Shown here piece after piece: positions 45,407 to 59,510 of a stretch of 64,000 nucleotides of DNA. The DNA lies in assembly GCA_963733455.1 (NCBI GenBank), contig CAVTDE010000003.1, forward strand, positions 449,154 through 513,153. The letters are read 5' to 3'. The notes under the pieces are model-generated. The model made no database searches and was not told the origin of the DNA. It was given only the letters and a program-made list of their open reading frames with translations. Origin of the DNA: an uncultured Bacteroidales bacterium. GTDB lineage: Bacteria; Bacteroidota; Bacteroidia; Bacteroidales; VadinHA17. Both the position numbers and the translations under genes were made by a program. Position 1 is the first letter of the stretch, and every line of letters begins with the position of its first letter.

Positions 45407-48172
45407 CTATTTCTTTTTTGTTGCTGTTATTTCTTCCTCAGGAGAAATGAGTGATAATGAAATTACCTCGTTTTTGTCGTTTGTTTTAAACTCAACTGTA
45501 AAGCCTTCCATAACATTAAGCCCGAATTTTGTAGCAGATAATGGAGTTAATTCCATCTCAGGTTGTCCGGGAAGGATCAGATTGAGTGTCTTCCCGTCTT
45601 TCAGGGTTACTTTTATAATCTCGTCATCATAACTATATTCGCCGGTATATCTCTGCAGCGTTTCTTCCGGAACAACAACGGCTTCGGGTCCCTTCGGCTT
45701 CGCCGGGAGTTTTGATTTTACATAATTTGCCTGGTCGGTCAGACCCATGTTCTGTTTTGCAGTTGCAATGCCATTGAGGATCATTCCATTTATGTATGGC
45801 TTTACCTGTGAAGCATACGCTTCGGGGATTGTATCACGAAATTTTACTATCATGTCGATTCCTCTCCTGAAATTCTTATCATTCTTCACCCTCTTCAGAT
45901 AGTTTGTGAAAGGCTGAAGCAGCATAAATTTGCTGTTTCCTAAGGGTAATTCGTCAAACCGGGCAGCAAGGGAATCAAATTCGTTCTCACCCGCATATGT
46001 GTACAGAACTTGAGTTATTGCACTTTTAAGTCCTCCTTTAACCTTCAGGGATGAGATACTCTTTGCCCTCCCGAGAGCAGCGACGCTGTCAATTAAGGCC
46101 AATGCCTGGAGGGCATTACCTGCTACCGAATAAGATGAATCGTTTATTGAATTCATGAAGAGTTCCCTGTAACCGGTCGTCTTGTATTTTCCAAGAGCCT
46201 CAAGTGCAGCTGCCCTGATAAGAGAAGACGGATCGTTCGATGCAAGTTTTACCAGGATGGGTTCAACAGCATTTTTAATAGAATCATTCGTAATATTTAA
46301 CCTCTGGATTGCGAAAATCCTCAAGCCCTGATATTTGTCATTGATGGCATTCATCAGGAATCCCGAAGCTTTGGTATCATTCACCTGGTTCATAGCGGCA
46401 TATTCAATTGCTTCACGCCTGTCGAGGTATAACCCTGCATTTTTATACTGAAAGATGTAGTCGTCAAGCGTCTTCTTGTCTGTTTTTTCACAGAGAAGCA
46501 TTTTATCACCGTCAAAATTTATAAGATCAGGCCTTTTAACGGAAGTGAAGGTAAATGTATCGGCTTTATTTTCGAGCCATACCGGATATCGTTTTTTGCT
46601 TCCTCCCTGGTATAGATCAATTGCCACCGGTAGCCTGAAAACCTTGTCAGGCTGGGTTTGCTTAACTATGACCTTTGCCGATTGTCTGGCAATATCATAG
46701 TCATAGCTGATTTCAAGTTTGGGATGGCCTGAGCCATAAAACCACTGATTCCAGAACCAGTTCAGGTCCTCCCCGGTAACCTCTTCAAATGCAAGACGGA
46801 GTTCCTGCGCCTCGGCTGCCTTGAATTTGTAAGTTGTAAGATACAGATTAAGTGATTTGTAGAAAGCGCTGTCACCAACGAAGTTACGGAGCATATTAAG
46901 TATCCGGCCGCCTTTCTGGTAGCTGACAGCGTCGAAAACCTCCTCGCGGTTCCTGTAGTAAAAGCGGACAAGAGGTTTATTTCTGCTGTTACTGAAGAGG
47001 TAATTCTGCATTGCATCAAAATTGTGGTTATCACCCGCATCCCGGCCATGTTTGTGCTCTTCCCATAATGTTTCGCTGAAATCGGCAAATGATTCATTAA
47101 GTGCGATATTACTCCAGCTTTCGGTTGTAACATAGTCACCGAACCACATGTGGAACAGTTCGTGAGCTATTATATCCTCCCATGAGTTGCCATCGATAAG
47201 CTGCCGGGCATCCTGCTGTGCCGATTCAGCGTGCACTGTTGCCGTTGTGTTTTCCATAGCACCGCTCACATAGTCGCGTACAACGATCTGGGAATATTTT
47301 TGCCAGGGATAATCAACTCCGGTTATATTTGAAAAATATCTGATCATCTCCGGTGTTTCGCCAAAGATCTTCCTTGCGACCGGAGCATATTCTTTTTCAA
47401 CATAATAACTTACTTCTTTACTTTCGTACTTGTCTTTTATGATTGAAAATTCGCCGGCTGCCATCATCATAAGATAAGGAGCATGAGGAAGATCCATCTT
47501 CCAGGTATCCGTACGTGTACCTCCGGTGTTTTTCTTTTGTTTCACAAGAAGCCCGTTTGAAAGTGTTTGGAATCTGTCAGGAACTGTAATGCTGAACTCG
47601 TTCGTAGTTTTTTGATTTGGTTTGTCAATTGTGGGTACCCATGCGGAATTCGATTCAGTTTCTCCCTGAGTCCAGATCTGGGTTGGCTTATTTTTTTCCG
47701 TTCCCAGGGGATTTATAAAGTAGAGGCCTTTTGCACCAAAGATGGCAGCGCTGCCTTTCAACTTGATGTCGTTGGGTTTAGCGATGTAATCTATAAAAAC
47801 TGTATAGGTTTCTCCGCTTTTGTATTTCTTATCAAGAGTGATGTAGAGGTTCAGGCTGTCATAGCTGTATTTAAGCGGAATTCTCTTCCCTGCCTTAACA
47901 ACTGATAATTCTTTGATTTCCATTCTTTTTGCGTCGAGATTCAAAGAATCTGTAGGATAAAAATGAGGCTTGAGGGTGATCCAGGCTTTCCCATACATCC
48001 ATGATTTTGTAAAGTCGAAGCTGACCTCAAGTTTTGTGTGAATAAGGTCATTGATTTTTGTGGGTGTTGCCCTGTATATTTTTTCCCAGCTTTCAGGTTT
48101 ATGATCATCGGGTTCCTGCGAAAAGCAAATGAATGAAATGAACAGCAACCCTGCGAAAAAGACTTTTTTCAT
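45407..48172 (-). CDS. M1-family metallopeptidase (aminopeptidase N-like) with a C-terminal HEAT/ARM-like repeat region, secreted
   Basis: Signal peptide MKKVFFAGLLFISFICFS, exopeptidase motif GAMENT, and zinc motif HELFHMWFGD...E (HEXXH-x18-E). ATG 48172 is preferred over the TTG at 48184. Confidence 0.92.
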   Translation of the reverse strand: MKKVFFAGLLFISFICFSQEPDDHKPESWEKIYRATPTKINDLIHTKLEVSFDFTKSWMYGKAWITLKPHFYPTDSLNLDAKRMEIKELSVVKAGKRIPLKYSYDSLNLYITLDKKYKSGETYTVFIDYIAKPNDIKLKGSAAIFGAKGLYFINPLGTEKNKPTQIWTQGETESNSAWVPTIDKPNQKTTNEFSITVPDRFQTLSNGLLVKQKKNTGGTRTDTWKMDLPHAPYLMMMAAGEFSIIKDKYESKEVSYYVEKEYAPVARKIFGETPEMIRYFSNITGVDYPWQKYSQIVVRDYVSGAMENTTATVHAESAQQDARQLIDGNSWEDIIAHELFHMWFGDYVTTESWSNIALNESFADFSETLWEEHKHGRDAGDNHNFDAMQNYLFSNSRNKPLVRFYYRNREEVFDAVSYQKGGRILNMLRNFVGDSAFYKSLNLYLTTYKFKAAEAQELRLAFEEVTGEDLNWFWNQWFYGSGHPKLEISYDYDIARQSAKVIVKQTQPDKVFRLPVAIDLYQGGSKKRYPVWLENKADTFTFTSVKRPDLINFDGDKMLLCEKTDKKTLDDYIFQYKNAGLYLDRREAIEYAAMNQVNDTKASGFLMNAINDKYQGLRIFAIQRLNITNDSIKNAVEPILVKLASNDPSSLIRAAALEALGKYKTTGYRELFMNSINDSSYSVAGNALQALALIDSVAALGRAKSISSLKVKGGLKSAITQVLYTYAGENEFDSLAARFDELPLGNSKFMLLQPFTNYLKRVKNDKNFRRGIDMIVKFRDTIPEAYASQVKPYINGMILNGIATAKQNMGLTDQANYVKSKLPAKPKGPEAVVVPEETLQRYTGEYSYDDEIIKVTLKDGKTLNLILPGQPEMELTPLSATKFGLNVMEGFTVEFKTNDKNEVISLSLISPEEEITATKKK

Positions 48173-48304
48173 GGTATAGATCAATAAGTTATTGAATATA
48201 AAAGTATATCAAAATCCTTAAAAAGTTAAGATATGTAAATAAAACGGCATTTAGAGGTAATGGTTCATGGGGGGCGTAACGGCAGCCCTTTTTTCGGTTG
48301 GGCC

Positions 48305-49021
48305 TTACATGAATTTCTCTCTTTTCTGAAGGTTATAAAGGGCGGCAAGAAGGAAGAGTATGGTTCCGGTAATGAGTATAATACGGTTCTTAAGCGTTAT
48401 TAATGCCCATGCTGCTTCATTGACATCATACGCCGGACGGAAAGGGTTAAGAAATACATTCCACTGACTTTTACGCAATGGTTCCATGAGTATCATGAAG
48501 AAGAGCCCGATAATTATCATTACAACGGCTGTACCGTTTCCGTTCCTTATCACGGTTGAGAGCATGAACGCCATCATACCGAGAAAGAGGACCGGCAGCA
48601 TGATTTGCACGGTAACACTGACAAACCGGAATTTTACTATAAGTATTGATGAGAGGAAAGTAAACAGAAGCATTATGAGAAATGCGATAACAAAGATGAG
48701 GAGGATCCTTACAAGCCATACCTTATACCTGTAGTTGGGGATGCCGAAAAGTATTTCTATTGTACGTGCATCCTGATCGTTCTGGATACCGAAAACCGAG
48801 GGATAAAAGACAAGAAGTATCCCTGAAAATATGAATACTCCGTAAAGGTCGCTCATCCTTGAAACATCATTATCAAGAACATATATCACGGAAAGGCCAA
48901 GATAAAAAAGAACTGAGCCTGCAAGAAACCAGATGAACTTGTTCGCGAAAATGATTCTCAGGTTATAGAGTATCATTTTCTGAAACAGGATGTAATAATT
49001 ATATATTGTTTTGCCCTTCAT
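48305..49021 (-). CDS. ABC-2-type transporter permease (6 TM)
   Basis: 238 aa with six hydrophobic helices. It starts 33 bp after the upstream ATPase-containing gene and is the last gene of the operon. Confidence 0.7.
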   Translation of the reverse strand: MKGKTIYNYYILFQKMILYNLRIIFANKFIWFLAGSVLFYLGLSVIYVLDNDVSRMSDLYGVFIFSGILLVFYPSVFGIQNDQDARTIEILFGIPNYRYKVWLVRILLIFVIAFLIMLLFTFLSSILIVKFRFVSVTVQIMLPVLFLGMMAFMLSTVIRNGNGTAVVMIIIGLFFMILMEPLRKSQWNVFLNPFRPAYDVNEAAWALITLKNRIILITGTILFLLAALYNLQKREKFM

Positions 49022-49054: not shown

Positions 49055-52000
49055 TTAGTTCCCGTTCTTTCGTCTTAACAACCACAAATAGGCATCCTCA
49101 AGGTTAGGAACTGCACTTACTGCATTTTCCCAGGGTGAAGACTCAGAAATAACCCTTACCCTCACATGATCGGCTTCCGACATATGGTGAACCACAAGAT
49201 GTGTTTCAACAAAGCTGTTAAAGTCACCTGCAGGTATATTGAACTGCCAGACATGTCCCTCAGCTTCCCTGGTCATATCGATTGGCTTGCCAAGATATCG
49301 CATTTTGCCCTTGTTAAGAACTGCCACCTGGTTACAGGAACTCGAAATGTCTTCAATGATATGGGTTGAAAAAATAACAATCCTTTCACGGCTCAGCTCA
49401 ACCAGGAGGTTTCTGAACCTGATACGTTCCCTTGGATCGAGGCCTGCAGTGGGCTCATCCACAACAAGTATCCGCGGCAGGTGAAGCAGGATCTGGGCAA
49501 TACCCATCCTTTGTTTCATACCTCCGGAATATGATCCAATTTTCTCATTCCGGTGTTCGTCCATATGTACAGCTTCAAGTACATAGGTAACCCTTGCTTC
49601 CCTGACCTCCGAATCCGTAATGTTCTTAAGCATTGCCTGGTAATGCAGGTATTCGTGGGCTGACATATTTTCATATGTGCCGAACTCCTGCGGAAGGTAG
49701 CCGATCAGCCCCTGAAGTTCCTCGCGCTTAAGCTGCGTGTCGAGACCATTGATCCATACCTTGCCATAACTTTGCTCAAGGATGCCGCAGATTATTCTCA
49801 TCAGAGTTGTTTTCCCTGCACCGTTGGGACCCAGAAGTCCGAACATCCCGTTGCCAATATTAATTGAGACACAGCTGAGCGCTTTGAAAGGCTTTTTCTT
49901 CTTGCCGATAAGCGGCACTGCTGCCACTAACTTGTAAATAGTTTTTCTAATTTCTTTGGCTCTTCCCTCAAGCCGGTAGATATCAATGTTTTCCCTTGAC
50001 AATTTCTGGCCGGTCCTGTAGATAAATAAACCGGTGAACCAGATAATTCCAAGTATCAGAACAACAGCAATATTATTCCATCGCATCTGGAACCAGATAA
50101 GGTTCAAAAGCGGGATGAGCCAGAAAACCGAAAAGTCGGCTGCCATTGAAAACCTCTTAAGGATCTTTTTTTTACCTCCTGCTGTCAGATTTGAAAAGTA
50201 TTCATGAAAACACGACCATATTGATGAAAGGAAGAACCAGGTTACAATGCTGAACAGAAATATCCAGAATCCCGTTTTCAGATAGAAGTATGTGAAATAA
50301 ACGAGAAACCCAAACAGCGGAATCTCCCAGAGGATACGCCCAAGATCTTTCCAGGTCCTGAAATGCTGCTGCAAACCGAGTCTCTCCCTGATCTTTGCTC
50401 CGGCTTTCCATTCCCTGACCCACCTGGAGTCGCGTTCATAGATTTTTACGAGACTTTGTATATGGATATTAATTGGTTCATCAGCCGAAATGACAGTCTC
50501 CCGTGCCTTTCGCAGACTGTTCATTACAAACCAGGTTCCGGCCGGTACAAGGATCAGTACAAGTATCGTTGTTATCATCTTCCACAGGAACCTGTCGATA
50601 TAACTGTATATCAGGAAAGTCAGGAATGCAAAAATCATTATCTGGATGATCTTGTTTTTCCAGCTGAGAGAGTTGAACCAGTCGATTGAGTTTTCAAGAC
50701 CTGTATAAAAAGTCGGGATAAAAATCAGGGTAAGTAGTGTGCTGAGAGAAAGGCCGCCGATGACGGTTATCGCAAACGAGGCACCGATTGCCGAAACATA
50801 TTCAGCCTGTCCCATTGCCAGTGGCACCATCGCAATTACAGTGGTTGAGGCAGTTATCAGGATTGGGCGTAAACGTGCCACACCGGCTGTCATCAAGGCT
50901 CTGTGCCTCCGGTTCCCTCTCTTGCGAAGTATATTTGTATAGTCAATAAGAATAATCCCGTTGTTTACAACAATCCCGATAAGTATCAGGAACCCGGTAA
51001 GTGTGTTGGCATTAAGCAAAGAATTGCCTGTCAGTATCAGGGCGATCAATGATCCCAGGGCTGCCAGGGGAATGCTGAACATCAGAACTACAGGAGTTGC
51101 AAGCGATTCAAAAACCGCCGCCAGGATCATATAAATCAGAAGGAAAGCTATGCCAATAAGGTAATAAAAGTCCTTGAGCTGATTTTCTTCCTGAACTACT
51201 TCCACTGCCAGACCGGCAGGGATATTCAGACCTGAAACAATCGTCTGGATCTCCTCGCGGGCTCCTGCAACAAGGTCTTTCGAATTCTTTATCTCATCGG
51301 TGAAATTATAGGTAACTGTAATTCTTTTTTCCTGATTCTCCCGGTGAATGTTTCCCATACCTGAAGAGAAAACTATATCCGAAAGTTCCTCCATTTCCAT
51401 AACCGAACCAGAAGTATTTGTTACTTCAAGTTTCTTCAGATCATCAATGGTCTTATCGGTGTTCTTTTTTATCTCTCCGTTCTCATCAGCATATTTCAGC
51501 ATTATATCATAGGTCTCTGTTCCCTGGCGGAATGTCGCACCCGACGAATACTCACCTCCGAAAGATGAAAGGGCTACAGCCAGGTTCGCCAGATTGAAAT
51601 TGTTCCTTCCGAGGTAATCCATATCGAACATCAGATGGACTTCAGGTTTGTCTTCCTGGACATTTATTCCGGTGTTGGAGATTGCCGATAGTTTTTCAAC
51701 GTACGATTTGATATCCTCTGCGAGATTCTTCATCTGTGCGAAGTTCTCACCCTTTATTATGATGCTTTCTCTTTGAGATCCTATTCCGAGGAGATTCATA
51801 AAATCCGATCCCGGATTATATGTGTCACCTCCGCCGTTTCCTCCTGTAAATCCGCCGCTGGCCGATAATTCATCCATGCTCACCTCAGCTGCTGAAATAT
51901 TTTTTGTCTTTTCAGAGATATCATTTTTTATCTCAGGGAGCGACCGCTTTGTTTTATCATCCCAGTCTTTTGGCAAATTGATTGTAACGGTAGCTCTTTC

Positions 52001-53794
52001 CTCTTCAATATGGCTTATGATATCTTCCTTTTCGGGAAGAGATGCGAGACGTGATTCTATCTCCGAAACAACGGCATCTGTTTTTTCAAGGGTCGATCCT
52101 CCCGGCATGGTTACACTTAACCTGAAATTGGGAGCCTCGACCTCCTGAGTTGAACTTATGCTTAAAGTAAGGCTTATAAGGAGGGCTGCAAAAAAGATAA
52201 CTAGTGTACCGATAATTGTGGCTGCCGGCTTCCTCATACATGCTTTAAGGATGAGGTAATAGCTCTGTATAAGTCTGTCGTGTATCGAGAGTTTCTGAAA
52301 TATAGACGATTCACTGTTTTTGGATCCGGAGAGCAGATAATAAGTCGCCATCGGGATAAACATGACTGCAACAAGAAGTGAGATCAACAGTGTTGAGATT
52401 ATTGAAACGCCTATGTTCTTTCCAATTATTCTTACAAGGAAATTAGTTGAAAAAATAAATGGGAGAAAGACAATAAGGGTCGTAAGGGTCGACGCAAAAA
52501 TAGATCGCCAGACCTCGGTAGTTCCCTGCTTAACCGCTGTACCCGGATCTTTCCCGAGACCGGCGAGCCGGTATATATTCTCCAGAACCACCACCGAATT
52601 ATCGACAAGCATCCCAATTGCAAGGGCCATCCCTACAAGTGTCAGACTGTTAATTGAAATATCAGCGGCATAGAAAAAGTTAAAGGCCGAATAGACCGAG
52701 ATCGGGATCGATAACCCAATTATGGTTACAAGTCTTATATTCCGGAGGAAGAACCAAAGGATCAGAACGGCCAGGAGACCACCGGTAATCGCAAGATTGA
52801 TGATCTGATTTATATTCTTCTCCATTAACTCGGCGCCGTTATTCTGAACGACGATCTCAACTCCCTGTGAAGCAAGTTTTTTGTTCAGCTCATCTACTTG
52901 ATCAACAGCGTCATGCGATAAGTTAATAAGGTTTGCCTGGTTATCATTAACAAGTGTCATTGTTACGGCATCGAGCCCGTTCACCCTGCTGTAGGAGCTT
53001 TGCTCCTTAACGCCGAAAAATATTTCAGAGATGTCCTTAAGCAGGACAGGTCCGGTTTTATCGACTATTATGCTCCCGATATCTTTTACATCCGTATATT
53101 CCGAGGAAACATTAACGAAAAATTCATCCTGACCGTCAACTACTTTCCCGACAAATGTCTTATCCCTTCCATTATTGTTAAGCAGGTTCCTTACCTGACC
53201 CATTGAAATTCCAAAGGCTTTGCAGGCCTTTTCATTAAGGCGTACCTCTATCGAGTTCTCCTGTCCGCCATAAACCTGAACTCCGGCAATGCCGTCTATA
53301 TTCTCAAACTCCGGTTTAATCTCCCTGTCTGCTATATTCCTGATCCTGTCTATGCCTCCTTCACCTCTGATCTGAAGTTCCATGAATTGATTTGTCAGTT
53401 GCTTCAGGTCAATTTTTATCACATTTATGATAAACTCTTCAGGCAGCGTACTTTTTACAATATTGATCTTTTCCTGAAGCTTCAGATTGGCATATTTCAG
53501 ATCAGCGTTCTGATTATAGTAGATTATTATTGTTCCGTATCTTGAAGTGATGTTCGATTCAATCTTTTCAATCCCCTCAAGTGTTCCAATAGCTCCCTCG
53601 ATTGGAATTATTGCCTGTGTTTCAATATATGACGGATCAAGTTCAAGGGGTGCACCCACCTGTACGATCAATGTCGGGAGCTGAGCATTCGGAAAGAGCT
53701 CAACAGAGAGCCGCTTGTACGAGACATAACCAAGCAGGCTAAGTCCCAGAAAGAACATACAAATGAGAACCCTTCTTTTTATAATGGAATTCAT
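49055..53794 (-). CDS. RND (AcrB/HAE-type) permease continuing without a stop into a 6-TM-anchored ABC ATPase (1579 aa as assembled). The alternative model is two genes: RND 53794-50638 and a membrane-anchored ATPase 50638-49055.
   Basis: Residues 1 to about 1040 form a complete 12-TM RND permease with two large periplasmic loops. Then come 2 TM helices, an NBD first strand (INIHIQSLVKIYE), 4 more TM helices, and then Walker A GLLGPNGAGKTT, signature SGGMKQRMGIAQ, Walker B ILVVDEPTAGLD and a DrrA-type C-terminal tail. Dropping one A from the A5 run (plus-strand T5 at 50655-50659) would end the RND at ...SWKTRSSR* with a TAATG stop/start overlap at 50636-50640. Confidence 0.6.
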   Translation of the reverse strand: MNSIIKRRVLICMFFLGLSLLGYVSYKRLSVELFPNAQLPTLIVQVGAPLELDPSYIETQAIIPIEGAIGTLEGIEKIESNITSRYGTIIIYYNQNADLKYANLKLQEKINIVKSTLPEEFIINVIKIDLKQLTNQFMELQIRGEGGIDRIRNIADREIKPEFENIDGIAGVQVYGGQENSIEVRLNEKACKAFGISMGQVRNLLNNNGRDKTFVGKVVDGQDEFFVNVSSEYTDVKDIGSIIVDKTGPVLLKDISEIFFGVKEQSSYSRVNGLDAVTMTLVNDNQANLINLSHDAVDQVDELNKKLASQGVEIVVQNNGAELMEKNINQIINLAITGGLLAVLILWFFLRNIRLVTIIGLSIPISVYSAFNFFYAADISINSLTLVGMALAIGMLVDNSVVVLENIYRLAGLGKDPGTAVKQGTTEVWRSIFASTLTTLIVFLPFIFSTNFLVRIIGKNIGVSIISTLLISLLVAVMFIPMATYYLLSGSKNSESSIFQKLSIHDRLIQSYYLILKACMRKPAATIIGTLVIFFAALLISLTLSISSTQEVEAPNFRLSVTMPGGSTLEKTDAVVSEIESRLASLPEKEDIISHIEEERATVTINLPKDWDDKTKRSLPEIKNDISEKTKNISAAEVSMDELSASGGFTGGNGGGDTYNPGSDFMNLLGIGSQRESIIIKGENFAQMKNLAEDIKSYVEKLSAISNTGINVQEDKPEVHLMFDMDYLGRNNFNLANLAVALSSFGGEYSSGATFRQGTETYDIMLKYADENGEIKKNTDKTIDDLKKLEVTNTSGSVMEMEELSDIVFSSGMGNIHRENQEKRITVTYNFTDEIKNSKDLVAGAREEIQTIVSGLNIPAGLAVEVVQEENQLKDFYYLIGIAFLLIYMILAAVFESLATPVVLMFSIPLAALGSLIALILTGNSLLNANTLTGFLILIGIVVNNGIILIDYTNILRKRGNRRHRALMTAGVARLRPILITASTTVIAMVPLAMGQAEYVSAIGASFAITVIGGLSLSTLLTLIFIPTFYTGLENSIDWFNSLSWKNKIIQIMIFAFLTFLIYSYIDRFLWKMITTILVLILVPAGTWFVMNSLRKARETVISADEPINIHIQSLVKIYERDSRWVREWKAGAKIRERLGLQQHFRTWKDLGRILWEIPLFGFLVYFTYFYLKTGFWIFLFSIVTWFFLSSIWSCFHEYFSNLTAGGKKKILKRFSMAADFSVFWLIPLLNLIWFQMRWNNIAVVLILGIIWFTGLFIYRTGQKLSRENIDIYRLEGRAKEIRKTIYKLVAAVPLIGKKKKPFKALSCVSINIGNGMFGLLGPNGAGKTTLMRIICGILEQSYGKVWINGLDTQLKREELQGLIGYLPQEFGTYENMSAHEYLHYQAMLKNITDSEVREARVTYVLEAVHMDEHRNEKIGSYSGGMKQRMGIAQILLHLPRILVVDEPTAGLDPRERIRFRNLLVELSRERIVIFSTHIIEDISSSCNQVAVLNKGKMRYLGKPIDMTREAEGHVWQFNIPAGDFNSFVETHLVVHHMSEADHVRVRVISESSPWENAVSAVPNLEDAYLWLLRRKNGN

Positions 53795-53803
53795 TACAGT
53801 TTC

Positions 53804-56800
53804 TTATATAAATTTTGAGGGTTGCACTACTGCCGTTTTTCTGCCGGTTATCTTTTCGCTCAAACTGTCAAATACCCAATAGACGCATGGAATTACAATG
53901 AGGGTCAGGAGTGTCGAAGAAATCAGTCCGCCGATAACAGCCAGAGCCATCGGAGATCTTAATGACGCACTTTCTCCGATTCCTATGGTCAATGGGATAA
54001 GTGCAAGAATGGTTGTCAGGCTTGTCATCAGGATCGGCCTTATCCTTTGGCTCCCTGCCATCACAATCGCTTCCTTCTTTCCGACACCTTTTTCGCGAAG
54101 CTGATTGATCCTGTCAATAAGGAGTATGGCATTATTGACGGCAATTCCTCCAAGCATTATGATGCCGATATAGGCCATCATATTAAGGCTTTTTCCAAGT
54201 AAGAAGAATGTAAGGACTGTCCCGACTCCTGCCAGTGGTATTGTAAGCATTATTACGAATGGCTGGATAACCGATTCAAACTGGGCAGCCAGAACCATGA
54301 AAACAAGGACCAGCGAAAGTATAAGGGCAAAAGTAAGATTTGACATCGACTCCTTACGTTTTAACTCATCTCCCGTAAATTCAATTTTATAATCGGCAGG
54401 CATGGCAATCGCCTTAAACGATGACTCCGATTCTTTAACCACCTGGTCGAGTGGCGCAGTTCCATTAACCATAGCGTAAACATAGCCTGTACGCGACTGG
54501 TTCCTTCGTGTTATTTCTCTCGGGCTGACAATTGTTTTTACATTGGCAAGTTCGCTTAACGGAACTTTTACATTACCAGCTGTTATCATAAGATCCTTCA
54601 GCTGGAGAAGGGTAATATCCCCGAGCTTTATCGTAATATCTTTCATCTCGCCGTCTTTTTCAAAGCTTCCGGCTGATGATCCTTCAAGATAGCTTTTGAT
54701 CTGACTGATAACGTTATCAACAGTCACCTTATAATAACTTGTCTTGAATCTGTCAATTGCAACTTCAACCTCGGGTGTGCCTTCATCTATTGAGGTGGTC
54801 AGGTTATACAAACCCGGGTTTTTAAGAAGAATGGCTTTGGTTTCGTTAACTATTTTTTCGAGCTCTTCATATGCCTTACCCGACACCTCAAGGGCAAACG
54901 GGGCGGATGAGGTTCCAAGGGAGGATTGCAGGGCAGTCTCTTCCCGAGTAAAGCTTACCTCCATATCGGGTATTGTTTTGAGGTAGCTTTCTACAAGACT
55001 TATAGCATCCTCGGTTCTGGATGCAAAGTCGTCGGTGAGAATTACCTTCAGTGAAGCTGTATTTTCACCAATGATCCCTGAAGAAGCGTTTGTTGTTGTG
55101 GTTTTATCCTCTCCTGTCTGGGCATAGATCATTTTAATTTTGCCCGGTAGTAATCCCCTGATGATCTCCTCTGTTTTACCGGCAGTGCTGAAGGTCCTTT
55201 TCAGGTCAGTTCCTTCAGGAAGTTTAAGCTTCACTGTAAATTCTGCTGATTCTGACCTGGGCATAAATTCACTCCCAAGTTTTGGGATCAGTAAAGCGGA
55301 AATTGCGAGTAATACTATTGAAAGAACTATTACAAGCCCCCTCTTTTCAACAACTTTTTCAAGGAATTTTTTATACCAGGTAAACCGGATAGTTGTTGAA
55401 ACCGGTTTCCTGTTTTTTTTGTCGGAGAAGAATGTCGAAACAAGCATCGGAATAACTATCATAGCTACAACCAAAGACGAAAGCAGGGCAAAGGCCACAG
55501 TCCAGGCCTGATCCTTAAACATCTCTCCGGATGCTCCGTGGAGGTATACTATTGGAAGGAATACAACAATCGTAGTTACAGTGGATGCTGTAATTGCTCC
55601 CCCGACTTCCCCGGTTCCGGTTATGACAGCGTCTTTCATCGACATTCCTTCTTCATGGTTTCTTGTTATGTTTTCAAGAACCACAATGGCATTGTCTACA
55701 AGCATGCCCGCTCCCAGCGCCAGCCCTCCCAGAGTCATTATATTTAGTGTGAGGTGGTTGAAATACATAAGATTGAAAGTGGCAATTATCGAGATGGGGA
55801 TCGCGACGCTTATTACAAGGGTTGTACCTATTCTTCTTAAAAAAATATAAAGGATAAAGACCGCAAGAAGAATTCCGACGATAAGGGTATTCTGGACCTC
55901 CGTTATTGCATTATGAATATAGTTCCCCTGATCCTGAACTTTTATAAATTCATAACCCGGCAATGCCTTGCCAAGGTCAACGAATGCCTTATCCAGACTC
56001 TTAACCACATCGACAGTATTGAATTTTGGCTCCTTATAGATTGAGAGGCCTACGCAGCGTTCTCCGTTAATGGTAACTATGTTTTCAGGATCCTTGTTTT
56101 CAAATCTTATTGTGGCAACATCCCTGAGGTAAACAGGAACTCTTTCCGATGATGAATTCGAGGTTGCTTCTGCCGTAAGCGATGGCTGCGCTGATGCGGG
56201 CTGCCTGAAACCTATTATAATATTTTCGAGATCGCCAGGATCTTTCAAAACGCTTACTCCTTTTACGACATATTTCAGACCCATATCGACTATTGAGCCT
56301 CCGGAGACGTTTTTGTTGTAATTGCTGATCTGGGCGGCAATGACATCGGAAGAGAGTCCGAATGATTCCAGTACATACTTATTTGTTTCAATAACAACCT
56401 CACTCTCTTCCTTGCCCGTAAGTCTGACATCAGCCACACCCTCAATCCTGACGAGTTCGTTCCTTATGTAGTTCTCGGCAACTTTACGGAGTTCATCCAT
56501 ATTTGTGATTCCCGGATTTTTTAATCCGACGGTCATCACGGGTGCGGCATTCGGATCGTATTGTGAAATAGTAAAACTTTCAAGGTCGGTGTTCTGACTG
56601 AATGAATTAAGCTCTTTCTGAAGATCCAGAAAAGCTTCGTCCATGTCCTTGTTCCAGTCGTATTCAACCGTGATGGTTGCAGATCCGACCCGTGACACTG
56701 ACGACACCTGCGTAACGTCACTCTGCCGCATTGAAAGGGACTCGATCTGGTCGACATAATTCTTTTCAATCTCTTCCGGTGGCCTTTCACCGGCATTCAG

Positions 56801-56947
56801 TTCAATGAAGATCTTGGGATTATTCAGATCGGGAAAAAGGTCCGTTCCAAGCTTGCCGAATGATATAAATCCAAGCAATACTATTCCCAGAACCAACATC
56901 AGGACCGTTACCGGGTATTTGACCGCAAATTGTGCAATTTTATTCAT
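53804..56947 (-). CDS. RND efflux transporter permease subunit (AcrB/MdtB-like)
   Basis: 1047 aa with 12-TM/2-loop RND topology and conserved TM4/TM10 regions (GGLALGAGMLVDNAIVVLENI; GIIMLGGIAVNNAILLIDRI). Confidence 0.93.
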   Translation of the reverse strand: MNKIAQFAVKYPVTVLMLVLGIVLLGFISFGKLGTDLFPDLNNPKIFIELNAGERPPEEIEKNYVDQIESLSMRQSDVTQVSSVSRVGSATITVEYDWNKDMDEAFLDLQKELNSFSQNTDLESFTISQYDPNAAPVMTVGLKNPGITNMDELRKVAENYIRNELVRIEGVADVRLTGKEESEVVIETNKYVLESFGLSSDVIAAQISNYNKNVSGGSIVDMGLKYVVKGVSVLKDPGDLENIIIGFRQPASAQPSLTAEATSNSSSERVPVYLRDVATIRFENKDPENIVTINGERCVGLSIYKEPKFNTVDVVKSLDKAFVDLGKALPGYEFIKVQDQGNYIHNAITEVQNTLIVGILLAVFILYIFLRRIGTTLVISVAIPISIIATFNLMYFNHLTLNIMTLGGLALGAGMLVDNAIVVLENITRNHEEGMSMKDAVITGTGEVGGAITASTVTTIVVFLPIVYLHGASGEMFKDQAWTVAFALLSSLVVAMIVIPMLVSTFFSDKKNRKPVSTTIRFTWYKKFLEKVVEKRGLVIVLSIVLLAISALLIPKLGSEFMPRSESAEFTVKLKLPEGTDLKRTFSTAGKTEEIIRGLLPGKIKMIYAQTGEDKTTTTNASSGIIGENTASLKVILTDDFASRTEDAISLVESYLKTIPDMEVSFTREETALQSSLGTSSAPFALEVSGKAYEELEKIVNETKAILLKNPGLYNLTTSIDEGTPEVEVAIDRFKTSYYKVTVDNVISQIKSYLEGSSAGSFEKDGEMKDITIKLGDITLLQLKDLMITAGNVKVPLSELANVKTIVSPREITRRNQSRTGYVYAMVNGTAPLDQVVKESESSFKAIAMPADYKIEFTGDELKRKESMSNLTFALILSLVLVFMVLAAQFESVIQPFVIMLTIPLAGVGTVLTFFLLGKSLNMMAYIGIIMLGGIAVNNAILLIDRINQLREKGVGKKEAIVMAGSQRIRPILMTSLTTILALIPLTIGIGESASLRSPMALAVIGGLISSTLLTLIVIPCVYWVFDSLSEKITGRKTAVVQPSKFI

Positions 56948-56952
56948 ACCGG

Positions 56953-58005
56953 CTACTTAATGATTTTTACTTTCGACCGGTTGCTGAGGGTTTCAAAACC
57001 TGATGTTACAACGCGTTCATTTTTTGTAAGTCCCCTCAAAATTTCAATGTCTGAAATATTTTCAAGCCCTGTTTCAACAATCCGTTCCGCTGCAACTCCC
57101 CTGTCAATGACAAATACGGTTTTCCCTTTCTGACGTGACAGCACGATATTCTTAGGAATAACTATTACCGAGTCTTTATGGTTGGTTACGATATCAGCTT
57201 TGACAAACATACCGGGTCTTAAAAGATAATCTGAATTCTCAATTGAAATGTTACCCTTAAATGTTCTGGTATCGGGATTAATTGCAGGCGAAAGCTGTGT
57301 TACCCTTCCCACGATGGTGTCACCCGGAATGGTATAGTTTGTAAGGTTTACCGGTTGCCCCGGTTTAATGTCATTTATATATTTTTCAGGAAGCTGGACC
57401 TCCATATACATGATCTGGTAATCCATAATTTTTGAGATTACCGATCCGGTCTCGACCTGAGTTCCCTGGGTATGGTAGGGAAGATCGACTATCACTCCGC
57501 TTATCGGTGCCGATATTCTGGTCTTATCCATCTGAAGCTTAGCGCTTTCAAGATTGGTTTTGGCATTTTCATAGTTCATCCCTGCTGTCTTAAGTTCCTT
57601 AAGTGTTACACCACCTTTTTCATACAACGATTCCTGCTTCCTTAATTCACTTTCGGTAAGCTCAAGATTAAGCTGGGTAGTCTCGAGTTTGACGGAGTTG
57701 ACATATTCCCTGTCCTCAAGCCGGGCAATCAGGTCGCCCGCCTGAATTCTGTCGCCAAGCTGCCAGGTCCGGTTGGTACGTGGATTCTTTTCAAGAAAGT
57801 AGGCAGCCGGTATCTTCGATTTGATTTCAACTTCTCCCTTTGGGAAAGCGGTCCCTGTTGTATTCACAAACTCCTCTATAGATTTTAGTCTTATCTCCTC
57901 CACCGATACCGGGATTTCAACATCGGCAGCAAGGTTCTCATCCCTGTTCCGGCATGCGGTAATCGACATAAGTGCAGCAGCTATTATTAGAAGACTCTTT
58001 TTCAT
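56953..58005 (-). CDS. RND efflux periplasmic adaptor subunit (lipoprotein)
   Basis: Lipoprotein signal MKKSLLIIAAALMSITAC at ATG 58005 (the track uses the GTG at 58029). It has coiled-coil hairpin and barrel-sandwich segments typical of the MFP family. Confidence 0.9.
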   Translation of the reverse strand: MKKSLLIIAAALMSITACRNRDENLAADVEIPVSVEEIRLKSIEEFVNTTGTAFPKGEVEIKSKIPAAYFLEKNPRTNRTWQLGDRIQAGDLIARLEDREYVNSVKLETTQLNLELTESELRKQESLYEKGGVTLKELKTAGMNYENAKTNLESAKLQMDKTRISAPISGVIVDLPYHTQGTQVETGSVISKIMDYQIMYMEVQLPEKYINDIKPGQPVNLTNYTIPGDTIVGRVTQLSPAINPDTRTFKGNISIENSDYLLRPGMFVKADIVTNHKDSVIVIPKNIVLSRQKGKTVFVIDRGVAAERIVETGLENISDIEILRGLTKNERVVTSGFETLSNRSKVKIIK

Positions 58006-58025
58006 TTTATCTGTTATTATGATTA

Positions 58026-59510
58026 TCACTGATTTTCCAATTTCATTACCGGAGTTACCGGTTCTTTTTTCTCAAAATCGTAAAGTGTCTGAATTTTAAG
58101 ATTTAATAGTTCAAGTTTATAGGAGATCAAAGCATTGGTATATGCAAGTTGCTTCTCCGACAGCTGATTCTGATAGATGTTAAGATCCATACCGGTAAGA
58201 TCTCCATTCTTATATTTTTCAAGATTCAGATCGTAGGTAAGCTGAGCGTTGGTAACCGATTGCCTTGCTATTCCGATCTGATTCTGAAGATTTAACAGAT
58301 TCCGATAGACCTTTCTGACATCAAGGATAATATTATTCTGTTCCTCGTCAAGGCTTATTTTTTCTGTCTCGATCGAAGCTTCTGTTGCCTTAACCCTTGA
58401 TTTCTTTTCACCCCAGTCCCATAGCGGGATTGTAAATGATAATGAAATGTCCTCATTATTAGTAGGATTTGCATAGACATCGCTTAGTTTCTCATTATCC
58501 CCAAAGAGCCCTATTGACAATCCGAGACTTCCCTTGAATTCATTCAGAGCTTTTGTCTGAATAAGGTCAAATTGAGAGTTCTCTATCGAAATTGATCTTT
58601 GTCTCAGCTCCATCCTGTTCGACAGACCCTGATCGATTGCAAAAGCAATATCAACCTGAATGGTATCAACAGCTATATTTGGCAAAACCAGAAGATCTTC
58701 ATAAAGACTCATCCCAATAAGGAGTTTGAAATCGTCCTTTGCATTTTCGAGAAGCACCTGTTTGTTTTCATAATCCGATTTTGTTGTGGCAAGATTCAGT
58801 TCTGCCTGGAACATCTCCTCACGTGCAGTGATTCCTGCTTCAACTTTATTTTTGGAGACCTCGTAGCTTTTCTGCATGTTCTGATATGCCTGGTTTGAGA
58901 TCTCCAGACTCTGTTGTTGCTGGTAGACATAATAAAAAGCCTGTGTTACTCCTTTTTCAAGTGCCAGGAGTTGTATTGCGTATCCAAGCTGTGAGTTCTC
59001 GAGCGCCAGCTGAAGCTCCTTAAGCTGAAGTTTTGTCCTGTTGTAAGTAAAAAGCGGCTGATCGAGATTCAGGGAAAGGCTATTGCTGAATCCTTTGGTT
59101 GTCAGATTGGTAAACTCACTGAATGAGTCCTTGTACCCAAACCGGTTTACCAGCGATACACGTGCATCAGTCAGGACAATAGGTTGTGAAACCGTAAACA
59201 GGCCGTAACTCTCAGTTGTCTTTGTTGTGTTCCATTGTGAAATCAGATCGTTGAATGCCCTGATCTGACTGTACCCTATCGGATTGACAGAAAGTGAGAA
59301 ATTGGATTTTAATGCAGCATTCTGCGCATTAAGGTTCTCCTGGCTCCTGATCAGCCCCAGTCTGGTTTTTTTAATTGTCGGACTGTTCGATTCGGCAATG
59401 TTCAGCGCCTGTTCGAGGGTCAGGCCTTGTTGGGAAAATAGAACCAGCGGAAGTATAAAAAACAACAGGATTAAAGTTCCGGCCTTAATGTTAAGTTTTG
59501 TTATATTCAT
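58026..59510 (-). CDS. TolC-family outer membrane efflux protein
   Basis: 494 aa with a signal peptide and the duplicated alpha-helical/beta-barrel TolC repeat pattern (LTLEQALNIAESNSP..., ...ARQSVTNAQLTYDLNLEKYKNG). Confidence 0.9.
   Translation of the reverse strand: MNITKLNIKAGTLILLFFILPLVLFSQQGLTLEQALNIAESNSPTIKKTRLGLIRSQENLNAQNAALKSNFSLSVNPIGYSQIRAFNDLISQWNTTKTTESYGLFTVSQPIVLTDARVSLVNRFGYKDSFSEFTNLTTKGFSNSLSLNLDQPLFTYNRTKLQLKELQLALENSQLGYAIQLLALEKGVTQAFYYVYQQQQSLEISNQAYQNMQKSYEVSKNKVEAGITAREEMFQAELNLATTKSDYENKQVLLENAKDDFKLLIGMSLYEDLLVLPNIAVDTIQVDIAFAIDQGLSNRMELRQRSISIENSQFDLIQTKALNEFKGSLGLSIGLFGDNEKLSDVYANPTNNEDISLSFTIPLWDWGEKKSRVKATEASIETEKISLDEEQNNIILDVRKVYRNLLNLQNQIGIARQSVTNAQLTYDLNLEKYKNGDLTGMDLNIYQNQLSEKQLAYTNALISYKLELLNLKIQTLYDFEKKEPVTPVMKLENQ

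What the first reader, a model, noticed from the sequence alone, without database searches (positions are those of the whole stretch)
49055..50638. ABC nucleotide-binding domain split by a four-helix membrane insertion between strand 1 and the Walker A loop
In the stand-alone paralogue the NBD starts MKIEIQGLNKIYPNGNHALKDINLEFGTGMFGLLGPNGAGKSS. Here the matching first strand INIHIQSLVKIYE is separated from PFKALSCVSINIGNGMFGLLGPNGAGKTT by about 205 residues.

The insertion contains four strongly hydrophobic helices: ILWEIPLFGFLVYFTYFYL, FWIFLFSIVTWFFLSSIWSCF, FSVFWLIPLLNLIWFQM and IAVVLILGIIWFTGLFIY. Lys/Arg-rich loops sit on the same (cytoplasmic) side, so the insertion enters and leaves the membrane an even number of times. 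Two further TM helices precede the first strand. An NBD carrying its own 2+4 helix membrane domain threaded through its N-terminal beta-hairpin is not a standard ABC architecture. It could be how this ATPase is tethered to RND-2 or to the small ABC-2 permease.
Basis: partly seen in the sequence, partly recalled or inferred. Interest (0 to 1): 0.66.

Follow-up and report, generated by a model that had tools for sequence, protein, structure and literature searches.

The report
RND pump fused to membrane-split ABC ATPase
A 1579-residue protein joins a proton-driven RND efflux pump to an ATP-driven ABC motor whose first strand is separated from the rest by four membrane helices. This layout is conserved in over 100 uncultured species, and I found no description of it in the literature.

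Summary
The region is the C-terminal third of one 1579-aa ORF (49055..53794, minus strand). Residues 1-1034 form a full RND permease. They are followed by two TM helices, a 13-residue strand (INIHIQSLVKIYE, 1108-1120), an amphipathic helix, four TM helices and the rest of an ABC nucleotide-binding domain (NBD, 1301-1579).

Three lines of evidence identify the strand as NBD strand 1, carrying the A-loop tyrosine:
- Spliced in front of the NBD, it extends more than 15 NBD profiles to position 1-3 and adds 7 bits. All 10 control sequences add 0.7 bits or less.
- It aligns with ABCA1 'IQNLVKVYR'.
- AlphaFold2 with a diverse alignment (pLDDT 86) predicts a 10-residue β-strand there (pLDDT about 94).

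The ORF is intact, colinear and free of indels across this region in 54 species genomes. The layout recurs in relatives only 36-54% identical, including Latescibacterota, so it is not a sequencing artefact.

The operon is also conserved: ABC ATPase, giant permease, OMP (absent in one relative), MFP, RND-1, the fusion, and a small ABC-2-like permease.

Function is inferred. I think the most likely role is an ABC-2 transporter hard-wired to a tripartite RND pump. I rate it a new variant of known kinds.

The parts
50693..53794 (-). RND permease domain of the fusion (residues 1-1034, 'RND-2')
   Evidence: Pfam ACR_tran 540.8 bits over 3-1031. Colinear alignment to MdtB, ZneA and CmeB. 28% identical to the upstream RND-1.
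50600..50662 (-). Extra TM helix 13 (residues 1045-1065), running outward after RND TM12
   Evidence: Kyte-Doolittle peak. AF2 helix H6-26, pLDDT 77-95.
50501..50590 (-). Extra TM helix 14 (residues 1069-1098), returning the chain to the cytoplasm
   Evidence: Kyte-Doolittle peak. AF2 helix H30-59. The motif MNSLRKA at its end is nearly invariant.
50435..50473 (-). Displaced NBD strand 1 with the A-loop aromatic residue (INIHIQSLVKIYE, 1108-1120; Tyr1119)
   Evidence: Splice test: +7.6 bits and GldA profile start moves from 16 to 2. All 10 controls add 0.7 bits or less. Aligns to ABCA1 897-909 'LGVSIQNLVKVYR'. QSLVKIY.R is invariant in 54 species. Y/F is present in all 22 divergent relatives that cover the strand. 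AF2 strand E71-80, pLDDT about 94.
50381..50425 (-). Conserved basic amphipathic helix after strand 1 (residues 1124-1138, R[WF]xREWKxG)
   Evidence: AF2 helix H85-99. REW, G and the R.RLGL motif are invariant in close relatives.
50282..50353 (-). Inserted TM helix 15 (residues 1148-1171)
   Evidence: AF2 helix H109-132. Aromatic-rich YFTYFY motif conserved.
50183..50272 (-). Inserted TM helix 16 (residues 1175-1204)
   Evidence: Kyte-Doolittle 1.9. AF2 helix H136-165.
50078..50167 (-). Inserted TM helix 17 (residues 1210-1239)
   Evidence: Kyte-Doolittle 1.64. AF2 helix H171-200.
49991..50071 (-). Inserted TM helix 18 (residues 1242-1268)
   Evidence: Kyte-Doolittle 2.24. AF2 helix H203-229.
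49895..49990 (-). Cytoplasmic return linker (residues 1269-1300). It holds the conserved NIDIYRLEGR motif, helix 1280-1292 and the invariant GKKKK run leading into strand 2.
   Evidence: Conservation 0.79. AF2 helix H241-253. 9 Lys/Arg residues.
49058..49894 (-). Remainder of the ABC NBD from strand 2 to the C-terminal domain (residues 1301-1579). Motifs: Walker A 1322-1329, Q-loop 1367-1370, signature YSGGMKQR 1422-1429, Walker B/catalytic Glu 1442-1448, H-switch 1476-1478.
   Evidence: Pfam ABC_tran 92.8 bits. Motif positions. All motif residues are invariant across 30 divergent sequences. Foldseek best matches are TM_1403, LptB and NosF. 41% identical to the stand-alone paralogue.
48305..49021 (-). 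238-aa six-helix membrane protein directly downstream. Candidate ABC-2-type permease partner of the fused NBD.
   Evidence: Found directly downstream in 73 of 80 loci at 75-88% identity. Also present in divergent operons at 44, 25 and 24% identity. The Latescibacterota-like orthologue has weak ABC2_membrane_2/3 hits. The window copy shows only a non-significant ABC2_membrane_4 trace.
53804..56947 (-). RND-1, second RND permease of the operon (1047 aa, no NBD)
   Evidence: Pfam ACR_tran 741 bits. Conserved upstream neighbour.
56953..58029 (-). Membrane-fusion (periplasmic adaptor) protein
   Evidence: Pfam HlyD_D23 and HlyD_3. Conserved position.
58026..59510 (-). TolC-like outer-membrane factor
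   Evidence: Pfam OEP, two repeats. Conserved position. Absent from the marine Latescibacterota-like operon L081.
59569..63015 (-). 1148-aa membrane protein with an ABC-2-like N-terminal helix bundle, a large extracytoplasmic part and a C-terminal Golvesin_C domain
   Evidence: Pfam Golvesin_C. The L081 orthologue adds a faint Peptidase_M1 hit. N-terminus versus the 238-aa protein by hhalign: probability 45%, E 2e-4.
63032..63925 (-). Stand-alone ABC ATPase paralogue with a contiguous strand 1 (MKIEIQGLNKIYP)
   Evidence: Pfam ABC_tran 109.7 bits. NCBIfam profiles match from position 1. First gene of the operon in divergent relatives as well.

Best explanation
**Shown by the ORF.**
- One polypeptide runs RND permease (12 TM), then 2 TM helices, NBD strand 1 with the A-loop Tyr1119, an amphipathic helix, 4 TM helices, a basic linker, and the rest of a catalytically complete ABC NBD.
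- The six extra helices cross the membrane an even number of times. Both pieces of the NBD therefore lie in the cytoplasm beneath RND-2.

**Predicted.** Strand 1 folds back into the NBD β-sheet beside strand 2, restoring a normal ATP site. The four-helix insertion is then a membrane-embedded loop in the β1-β2 hairpin.

**Inferred function.**
- The six helices act as a membrane anchor. They fix an ABC-2-family ATPase to the RND pump.
- That ATPase powers the small ABC-2-like permease encoded directly downstream. It may dimerise with a second fusion protomer in the RND trimer, or with the stand-alone paralogue that partners the 1148-aa permease.
- The ABC part would move a substrate from the cytoplasm or inner leaflet to the periplasmic side.
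- The RND-1/RND-2 pump, with its adaptor protein and TolC-like channel, would then expel it across the outer membrane.
For: **Architecture.** Pfam finds ACR_tran and ABC_tran in one ORF.

**Identity of strand 1.**
- The native 17-mer spliced before the NBD raises the GldA-model score from 172.6 to 180.2 bits and moves the profile start from 16 to 2.
- More than 15 other NBD models likewise extend to profile position 1-3.
- Seven shuffles, the reversed sequence and two other native 17-mers all give 172.6-173.3 bits with start 16. The natural upstream flank gives 173.5 bits with start 13.
- phmmer aligns the strand to ABCA1 and ABCA4 NBD strand 1.
- The motif and its aromatic residue are conserved from 36 to 88% identity.
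- AF2 with a diverse family-only alignment gives pLDDT 86.3 and pTM 0.73. It predicts a 10-residue DSSP strand at 1110-1119 with pLDDT about 94. The only other strands in the model belong to the NBD.

**Catalytic competence.** Walker A, Q-loop, signature, Walker B with its Glu, and the H-switch are all present and invariant.

**Not an artefact.** 54 intact colinear orthologues have zero indels in 1035-1320.

**Partner genes.**
- The 238-aa membrane protein is directly downstream in 73 of 80 loci and in divergent operons. One orthologue has weak ABC2_membrane Pfam hits.
- The whole operon is conserved across phyla.
- The six-helix linker is not itself an ABC-2 permease homologue: hhalign probability 0.25%.
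Against: - No model coordinates were available. The β1-β2 pairing is inferred from the DSSP strand assignment and the absence of any other possible partner, not measured.
- A first AF2 run with a shallow alignment was poor in exactly this region (pLDDT 66).
- No dedicated topology predictor was run.
- The window's 238-aa protein has no significant Pfam hit (E 5.7 to ABC2_membrane_4). Its assignment as an ABC-2 permease rests on weak hits in one orthologue, a motif resemblance and gene adjacency.
- The NBD dimer partner, the stoichiometry and the substrate are unknown.
- Both RND paralogues lack two of the three classical AcrB proton-relay residues. This leaves room for a more direct energetic role of the ATPase than the relay model assumes.
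Confidence: 0.7

Rival explanations
1. The NBD is simply N-terminally truncated. The INIHIQSLVKIYE segment would be a relic or an unrelated cytoplasmic loop element that does not rejoin the NBD fold.
For: - Contiguous profile matches start only at profile position 13-16.
- The first AF2 run gave low confidence here.
- The pairing was not verified from coordinates.
Against: - The strand scores as strand 1 in more than 15 independent NBD models, while 10 controls do not.
- It aligns to ABCA1 and ABCA4 strand 1.
- It is among the best-conserved stretches between the RND and NBD domains (0.83) and is invariant at QSLVKIY.R.
- The aromatic residue is kept in every divergent relative that covers the strand.
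- AF2 with a diverse alignment makes it a confident 10-residue β-strand.
- The segment directly upstream of strand 2 does not score as a replacement: +0.9 bits.
Confidence: 0.08
2. The apparent fusion or insertion is an assembly or indel artefact. A frameshift or read-through would have merged an RND gene with a separate membrane-ATPase gene.
For: Several database homologues are fragments or contain garbled stretches. Seven loci have broken frames.
Against: - 54 independent species-level genomes from many studies and assemblers keep one open frame of 1580-1620 codons, colinear over residues 1-1579. None has an indel in 1035-1320.
- Seventeen proteins of 1550-1585 aa, each representing a separate 50%-identity cluster, have the same layout.
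- Six of the seven broken loci are 'MFD' MAGs, and the breaks fall at different places.
- The one apparently stand-alone form (526 aa) sits on a 2.4-kb contig, and its cluster mate is 1567 aa.
Confidence: 0.01
3. The six extra helices are themselves the transmembrane domain of a TMD-NBD half-transporter with a new fold, which dimerises between two fusion protomers. Strand 1 would sit in its first cytoplasmic loop. The 238-aa protein would be an accessory rather than the permease.
For: - Six helices followed by an NBD is the usual half-transporter count.
- The helices are conserved (0.58-0.75).
- Foldseek alignments to ABCA4 and ABCA7 span about 500 columns.
- ABCA NBDs are the closest solved sequences.
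Against: - The long ABCA alignments have rmsd above 20 Å. Their TM-scores (0.40-0.42) are no higher than NBD-only matches, so the helices add nothing.
- The periplasmic loops are only 2-3 residues long.
- There is no profile similarity to the ABC-2 permease or to any Pfam family.
- A conserved six-helix ABC-2-like gene abuts the fusion's stop codon in almost every genome.
Confidence: 0.13
4. The ATPase acts on the RND pump itself. ATP-driven NBD closure would be transmitted through helices 13-18 to the RND transmembrane domain, gating or energising it instead of, or in addition to, the proton-motive force.
For: - The NBD is covalently linked to RND TM12 through membrane helices.
- The equivalents of AcrB D408 and K940 are Asn in both RND paralogues and in the consensus of the fused family.
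- The insertion ties the A-loop strand directly to membrane helices. This is a coupling path that ordinary ABC systems lack.
Against: - One TM4 Asp and the TM11 Arg are kept.
- RND-1 has the same substitutions without an NBD, so they may simply be the normal state of this RND subfamily.
- A dedicated permease gene gives the NBD an ordinary job.
- An RND trimer and an NBD dimer are symmetry-mismatched.
Confidence: 0.08

Closest known systems
ABC-2 / DrrA-GldA-NatA-type ABC ATPases. Closest solved relatives are the NBDs of ABCA1/ABCA4 by sequence, and Thermotoga TM_1403 (4yer), NosF and LptB by fold.
   Same: All catalytic motifs are present, and there is a C-terminal extra domain after the NBD core. 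Scores: GldA model 170 bits, DrrA model 157 bits, ABCA4 E 6e-56, 4yer TM-score 0.74 normalised to the target. Once spliced in, strand 1 matches these families from position 1-3.
   Different: In all of these, strand 1 is contiguous and the A-loop aromatic lies about 23-25 residues before Walker A. Here it lies 203 residues before, with four membrane helices in between. The protein is not a GldA equivalog: 170 bits against a cut-off of 402.6.
CFTR NBD1 regulatory insertion (RI)
   Same: The insertion is at the same structural site, between the first two β-strands of an ABC NBD (PMC4101494). This shows that the β1-β2 turn tolerates extra sequence.
   Different: The RI is 32 residues long, soluble, disordered and dispensable. 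Here the insert is 180-211 residues, forms two transmembrane hairpins, and shows no length change among 54 close orthologues.
Heteromeric RND pumps such as E. coli MdtBC
   Same: Two divergent RND permease genes (28% identical) lie side by side in one operon with an adaptor protein. MdtB is the best solved sequence match.
   Different: No known RND permease carries an ABC ATPase. Both paralogues here have Asn at the AcrB D408 and K940 positions. Scores fall far below the NCBIfam RND subfamily cut-offs: 461 against 1250.
MacAB-TolC, an ABC-type tripartite efflux pump
   Same: An ABC ATPase works in one envelope-spanning system with a membrane-fusion protein and a TolC-like channel.
   Different: MacB has a contiguous N-terminal NBD, four TM helices and its own periplasmic domain, and no RND component. 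This description of MacB rests on my own knowledge and was not tested here. In the present protein the periplasmic machinery is a full RND permease and the NBD is C-terminal and split.

Membership tests
ABC transporter nucleotide-binding domain (Pfam PF00005 ABC_tran) | Profile score above the curated cut-off | tested here: met
   92.8 bits against a cut-off of 25, residues 1317-1450.
ABC transporter nucleotide-binding domain (Pfam PF00005 ABC_tran) | Walker A, Q-loop, ABC signature, Walker B with catalytic Glu, and H-switch | tested here: met
   GPNGAGKT 1322-1329, LPQE 1367-1370, YSGGMKQR 1422-1429, ILVVDEP 1442-1448, STH 1476-1478. All are invariant in 30 divergent sequences.
ABC transporter nucleotide-binding domain (Pfam PF00005 ABC_tran) | N-terminal β1 strand with an A-loop aromatic residue about 25 residues upstream of Walker A, contiguous with strand 2 | tested here: not met
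   A strand with the aromatic residue exists (1108-1120, Tyr1119). It lies 203 residues upstream of Walker A and is separated from it by four TM helices. The element is present but contiguity is not.
ABC transporter nucleotide-binding domain (Pfam PF00005 ABC_tran) | ATP binding and hydrolysis; head-to-tail NBD dimer | not testable with these tools
   Needs biochemistry or a multimer model.
GldA gliding-motility ABC ATPase (TIGR03522 equivalog) | Score above the equivalog cut-off | tested here: not met
   169.6 bits against 402.6 for the fusion. The stand-alone paralogue scores 183.4 against 402.6.
RND permease (Pfam PF00873 ACR_tran, HAE1-like) | Full-length profile match (12 TM plus two large periplasmic loops) | tested here: met
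   540.8 bits, residues 3-1031 on profile positions 4-1018 of 1021. Colinear with ZneA and CmeB over 5-1039.
RND permease (Pfam PF00873 ACR_tran, HAE1-like) | AcrB-type proton relay (TM4 Asp-Asp, TM10 Lys, TM11 Arg) | tested here: not met
   Aligned to MdtB, TM4 reads VDN where MdtB has VDD, and TM10 reads VVNN where MdtB has VKKN. The TM11 Arg in RLRPIL is kept. RND-1 shows the same pattern, as does the consensus of the fused family.
RND permease (Pfam PF00873 ACR_tran, HAE1-like) | NCBIfam multidrug RND subfamily cut-off | tested here: not met
   RND_permease_2 scores 460.8 bits against 1250. This is a divergent RND lineage.
RND permease (Pfam PF00873 ACR_tran, HAE1-like) | Operon partners: periplasmic adaptor and outer-membrane factor | tested here: met
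   HlyD-family and OEP genes lie upstream and are conserved. The OEP gene is missing in L081.
ABC-2 (type V) exporter with a separate permease | Adjacent gene for a six-helix ABC-2 family permease | tested here: inconclusive
   The 238-aa neighbour is always adjacent. The window copy scores only E 5.7 to ABC2_membrane_4. The L081 orthologue has weak ABC2_membrane_2/3 hits. hhalign against the N-terminus of the 1148-aa protein gives probability 45%.
CFTR-type regulatory insertion | Short, disordered, soluble insert between β1 and β2 of an NBD | tested here: not met
   The site is the same. The insert here is 180-211 aa and consists of four predicted TM helices plus two cytoplasmic helices.

The most novel reading that the evidence does not exclude
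The fusion is more than a tether. The membrane helices threaded through the β1-β2 hairpin would couple the ATP site, through the A-loop strand, to the RND transmembrane domain. ATP binding or hydrolysis would then gate or energise an RND pump that has lost two of the three classical proton-relay residues. This would be the first transporter to combine primary (ATP) and secondary (proton-motive) energy coupling in one polypeptide, and a new way for an ABC domain to transmit force.
Probability: 0.15. Interest if true: 0.92.

Novelty: new variant of a known kind. Interest (0 to 1): 0.74.

Why it matters
RND pumps and ABC transporters are the two main engines of bacterial efflux. They are normally treated as separate machines with different energy sources. 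Here they are joined in one polypeptide, within a conserved seven-gene operon, in more than 100 uncultured Bacteroidales species and in at least one other phylum.

The junction breaks a rule of ABC architecture, because the nucleotide-binding fold is interrupted by membrane-spanning helices at the hairpin that carries the adenine-stacking residue.

If the relay model is right, this is a hard-wired form of the cooperation between inner-membrane transporters and RND pumps that has been proposed for drug efflux. If the coupling model is right, it is a new energy-coupling mechanism.

The family also gives a natural test case for how much an NBD can be split and still fold. That question bears on CFTR NBD1 folding and on engineering split ABC domains.

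Current databases label these proteins only as 'efflux RND transporter permease subunit', which hides the ATPase.

Tried and rejected
1. **First AF2 run.** It used 50 close homologues (60-88% identical) and gave pLDDT 66, with values below 50 across strand 1 and the NBD N-terminus. I discarded it. A second run with 30 sequences, including relatives 36-54% identical, gave pLDDT 86.

2. **Foldseek against the PDB.** It reports no residue ranges, so it could not show whether strand 1 is included. NBD-only hits align about 210-280 columns, which means the insertion is skipped. The long ABCA alignments have rmsd above 20 Å and are uninformative about the helices.

3. **Model coordinates.** They are not exposed to the script sandbox, so I could not measure β1-β2 hydrogen bonds.

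4. **Search for a stand-alone split NBD.** A profile of residues 1040-1300 was run against 1.84 billion representative proteins. It found 97 hits. Every full-length hit is a 1550-1585-aa fusion, and the rest are shorter and look like fragments. The one candidate checked (526 aa) is on a 2.4-kb contig with a 1567-aa cluster mate.

5. **Homology of the six-helix region.** Against the downstream permease, hhalign gives probability 0.25%. No Pfam family matches meaningfully.

6. **Literature.** Searches for RND-ABC fusions or a split NBD returned nothing relevant. The library covers open-access papers and bioRxiv only, so this is not proof of absence.

7. **GldA identity.** Rejected for both ATPases, because their scores are less than half the cut-off.
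Full report
**1. What is at the coordinates**

The finding's interval (49055-50638) is the last third of a single open reading frame, 49055..53794 on the minus strand, encoding 1579 residues.
- Pfam places a full-length RND permease domain (ACR_tran, 540.8 bits) on residues 3-1031.
- It places an ABC_tran domain (92.8 bits) on residues 1317-1450, with the match beginning only at profile position 13.
- NCBIfam NBD models (GldA, DrrA, LptB and many others) likewise begin at profile positions 13-16, at about residue 1301. The first β-strand is therefore missing from the contiguous NBD.

The segment INIHIQSLVKIYE is residues 1108-1120, and PFKALSCVSINIGNGMFGLLGPNGAGKTT begins at 1302. Tyr1119 lies 203 residues before the Walker A glycine. 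The equivalent Tyr12 of the stand-alone paralogue (63032..63925) lies 23 residues before it.

**2. The helices and their topology**

A hydropathy scan finds two hydrophobic segments after RND TM12 (1048-1067 and 1072-1092). It finds three of the four insertion helices at a threshold of 1.6. The fourth (1153-1172) is aromatic-rich and scores about 1.5.

AlphaFold2 predicts helices at the following residues:
- 1045-1065 and 1069-1098, before the strand
- 1124-1138, amphipathic
- 1148-1171, 1175-1204, 1210-1239 and 1242-1268, the four insertion helices
- 1280-1292

The loops joining helix pairs 13/14, 15/16 and 17/18 are 2-3 residues long and carry 1, 1 and 0 Lys/Arg. The other side carries 9, 2 and 9. 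This fits the positive-inside rule.

An RND C-terminus is cytoplasmic (established knowledge for AcrB-type pumps). Six further crossings therefore keep both NBD pieces in the cytoplasm. I had no dedicated topology predictor, so this is an inference.

**3. Is the short strand really NBD strand 1?**

*Splice test.* I joined ADEPINIHIQSLVKIYE directly to KKPFKAL... and scanned NCBIfam.
- The GldA-model score rose from 172.6 to 180.2 bits, and the alignment start moved from profile position 16 to 2.
- More than 15 other independent NBD models also extended to position 1-3. These include the lantibiotic, PQQ, GlcV, ECF, LptB, sulfate, PotA and PhnC models. Gains were typically 1.5-10 bits.
- Seven shuffles of the 17-mer, its reverse and two other conserved 17-mers from the same protein all gave 172.6-173.3 bits with start 16.
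- The natural upstream flank gave 173.5 bits with start 13.

*Alignment to solved structures.* phmmer against PDB sequences aligns the strand residue by residue with strand 1 of solved NBDs. Examples are ABCA1 897-909 'LGVSIQNLVKVYR' and ABCA4 929 'VCVKNLVKIFE'.

*Conservation.*
- In 54 orthologues, QSLVKIY.R is invariant. The strand (0.83) is among the best-conserved stretches between the RND and NBD domains.
- In 22 relatives only 36-54% identical in this region, the motif I.I.NL[VT]KI[YF] is retained.
- The aromatic residue is present in every one of them.

*Structure prediction.*
- A first AlphaFold2 run with a shallow alignment was poor (pLDDT 66).
- A second run used an alignment of family members only, so no canonical NBD could impose the answer. 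It gave mean pLDDT 86.3 and pTM 0.73.
- That model assigns a ten-residue DSSP β-strand to 1110-1119, with a block pLDDT of about 94. Strand 2 follows at 1303-1313 and strand 3 at 1316-1321.
- Every other strand in the model belongs to the NBD, so the ladder partner of the 1110-1119 strand must lie there.
- I could not read coordinates. The exact β1-β2 pairing is therefore inferred, not measured.

**4. Not an artefact**

- A scan of one genome per GTDB species found 113 genomes encoding a relative of residues 1035-1310. All 80 fetched are MAGs: 79 are labelled Bacteroidales, Bacteroidota, Bacteroidia or Rikenellaceae, and one is labelled Chloroflexota.
- In 54 loci with enough flank, the frame is open for 1580-1620 codons and colinear over residues 1-1579 at 73-82% identity.
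- None of these has a single indel in 1035-1320.
- Seven loci are broken at various places. Six of them are 'MFD' MAGs.
- Many database hits are fragments from short contigs or visibly frameshifted.

**5. How far the family reaches**

A profile of residues 1040-1300 was scored against 1.84 billion representative proteins and found 97 hits.
- Every full-length hit is 1550-1585 residues long, with the match at about 1050-1255.
- The single apparent stand-alone form (526 aa) sits on a 2.4-kb contig, and its cluster mate is 1567 aa.
- The split NBD was therefore found only as the C-terminus of an RND permease.
- One cluster carries Candidatus Latescibacterota labels.
- Sources name these proteins 'efflux RND transporter permease subunit' or 'AcrB/ABC-type multidrug transport system ATPase subunit'.
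- Two literature searches found no description of such a fusion.

**6. Genomic context**

The gene order on the minus strand is:
- ABC ATPase (297 aa)
- 1148-aa membrane protein with a Golvesin_C domain
- TolC-like OMP
- adaptor protein
- RND-1
- the fusion
- a 238-aa membrane protein

- The order from the 1148-aa protein to the 238-aa protein is the same in every locus with enough flank.
- It recurs, with the ATPase as first gene, in divergent relatives. These include a marine Latescibacterota-like contig, which lacks the OMP gene.
- The 238-aa protein starts at or within a few bases of the fusion's stop codon in most loci.
- Its orthologues are 44, 25 and 24% identical in the divergent operons. 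One of them has weak ABC2_membrane_2/3 Pfam hits.
- The window copy shows only a non-significant, colinear trace of ABC2_membrane_4.
- The N-terminus of the 1148-aa protein resembles the 238-aa protein weakly: hhalign probability 45%, E 2e-4.
- The six-helix linker resembles neither: probability 0.25%.
- The M1 peptidase gene downstream (45407..48184) is shared by only the two closest relatives. I do not count it as part of the system.

**7. Mechanism**

*Shown:*
- the covalent architecture
- the intact catalytic motifs
- the conservation of the layout
- the conserved operon partners

*Predicted:* strand 1 re-enters the NBD sheet and supplies the A-loop tyrosine.

*Inferred:*
- Helices 13-18 form a membrane anchor that fixes an ABC-2-family ATPase under RND-2.
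- The ATPase drives the adjacent ABC-2-like permease.
- The ABC module delivers substrate to the periplasmic side, and the RND-1/RND-2-adaptor-OMP assembly expels it.

The operon encodes two NBDs and two ABC-2-like permeases. A heterodimeric ABC transporter with one half tied to the RND trimer is therefore possible. A pair of fusion protomers within one trimer is equally possible. Neither arrangement could be tested. The substrate is unknown.

**8. Rivals**

- A truncated NBD with a relic strand is unlikely, given section 3.
- An artefact is excluded by section 4.
- The six helices might themselves be a new ABC transmembrane domain. This cannot be excluded, but it is disfavoured by the minimal periplasmic loops, the absence of any profile similarity, and the ever-present permease gene.
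- A direct energetic or gating role of the ATPase on the RND pump is the most novel reading. One observation makes it worth keeping. Aligned to MdtB, both RND paralogues read VDN in TM4 and VVNN in TM10, so the AcrB D408 and K940 equivalents are Asn. The first Asp and the TM11 Arg remain. The consensus of the fused family shows the same pattern. RND-1 shares this state without having an NBD, so it may be normal for this RND lineage.

**9. Comparison with known systems**

- The NBD belongs to the ABC-2/DrrA-GldA-like group but is not a GldA equivalog. Its closest solved sequences are ABCA NBDs. Its closest folds are TM_1403, LptB and NosF.
- The nearest precedent for the insertion site is the 32-residue regulatory insertion of CFTR NBD1, which lies between the first two β-strands (PMC4101494). 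That insertion is short, soluble and dispensable.
- Paired RND paralogues recall MdtBC.
- An ATPase working with an adaptor protein and a TolC-like channel recalls MacAB-TolC.
- None of these systems combines an RND permease with an NBD or threads membrane helices through an NBD.

**10. Verdict**

The feature is a conserved and, as far as I could find, undescribed architecture built from known parts. I rate it a new variant of known kinds, with interest 0.74. The main gaps are the unmeasured β1-β2 contacts, the weak family assignment of the small permease, and the complete absence of functional data.

Noticed in passing
window 52570-52590 and 50960-50990 (TM4 and TM10 of RND-2); the same motifs occur in RND-1 (53804-56947): Both RND paralogues read 'VDN' in TM4 and 'VVNN'/'AVNN' in TM10, where MdtB has 'VDD' and 'VKKN'. 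The equivalents of AcrB D408 and K940 are therefore Asn, while the first Asp and the TM11 Arg are kept. The pattern is also in the consensus of the fused family. I did not determine whether it is usual for this RND lineage.
   Followed up: partly
window 59569-63015 (-): A 1148-aa membrane protein has an ABC-2-like N-terminal helix bundle, a large extracytoplasmic part and a C-terminal Golvesin_C domain. A distant orthologue also has a faint Peptidase_M1 hit. Together with the stand-alone ABC ATPase it heads the conserved operon. Its role is unknown.
   Followed up: partly
window 49960-49990 (residues 1269-1279): The motif NIDIYRLEGR(F) directly after TM18 is strongly conserved, down to 'NI.I.R..GR' in distant relatives. 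AF2 predicts it mostly as coil, and I have no role for it.
   Followed up: no
L001, L002, L030, L031, L047, L048, L077: The orthologous gene is broken into 2-3 frames at different places in these loci. Six of the seven come from 'MFD' MAGs. Many ENA-derived protein hits (P0016, P0025, P0027) contain garbled stretches consistent with frameshift errors.
   Followed up: partly
L075 (JBLNAO010000361.1): A MAG labelled Chloroflexota carries an orthologue 78% identical to the window protein on a 10.5-kb contig. All other close relatives are Bacteroidales, so this contig is probably mis-binned.
   Followed up: no
window 45407-48184 (-): A 925-aa M1-family aminopeptidase with HEAT repeats lies directly downstream of the operon. 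It is shared by only the two closest relatives (L001, L002), so it is probably not part of the system. Still, the giant permease orthologue in L081 also has a faint M1-like hit.
   Followed up: partly
window 23073-30512 (+): A 2479-aa SprA homologue (type IX secretion translocon; SprA_N 687 bits) is present, together with IF-2, NusA and GH65/GH13/GH59 genes elsewhere in the window. This indicates a Bacteroidota chromosome with type IX secretion.
   Followed up: no
L085 17934-24384: One divergent relative has a second, conventional TetR-OMP-MFP-RND operon about 3 kb downstream of the fusion operon on the opposite strand.
   Followed up: no
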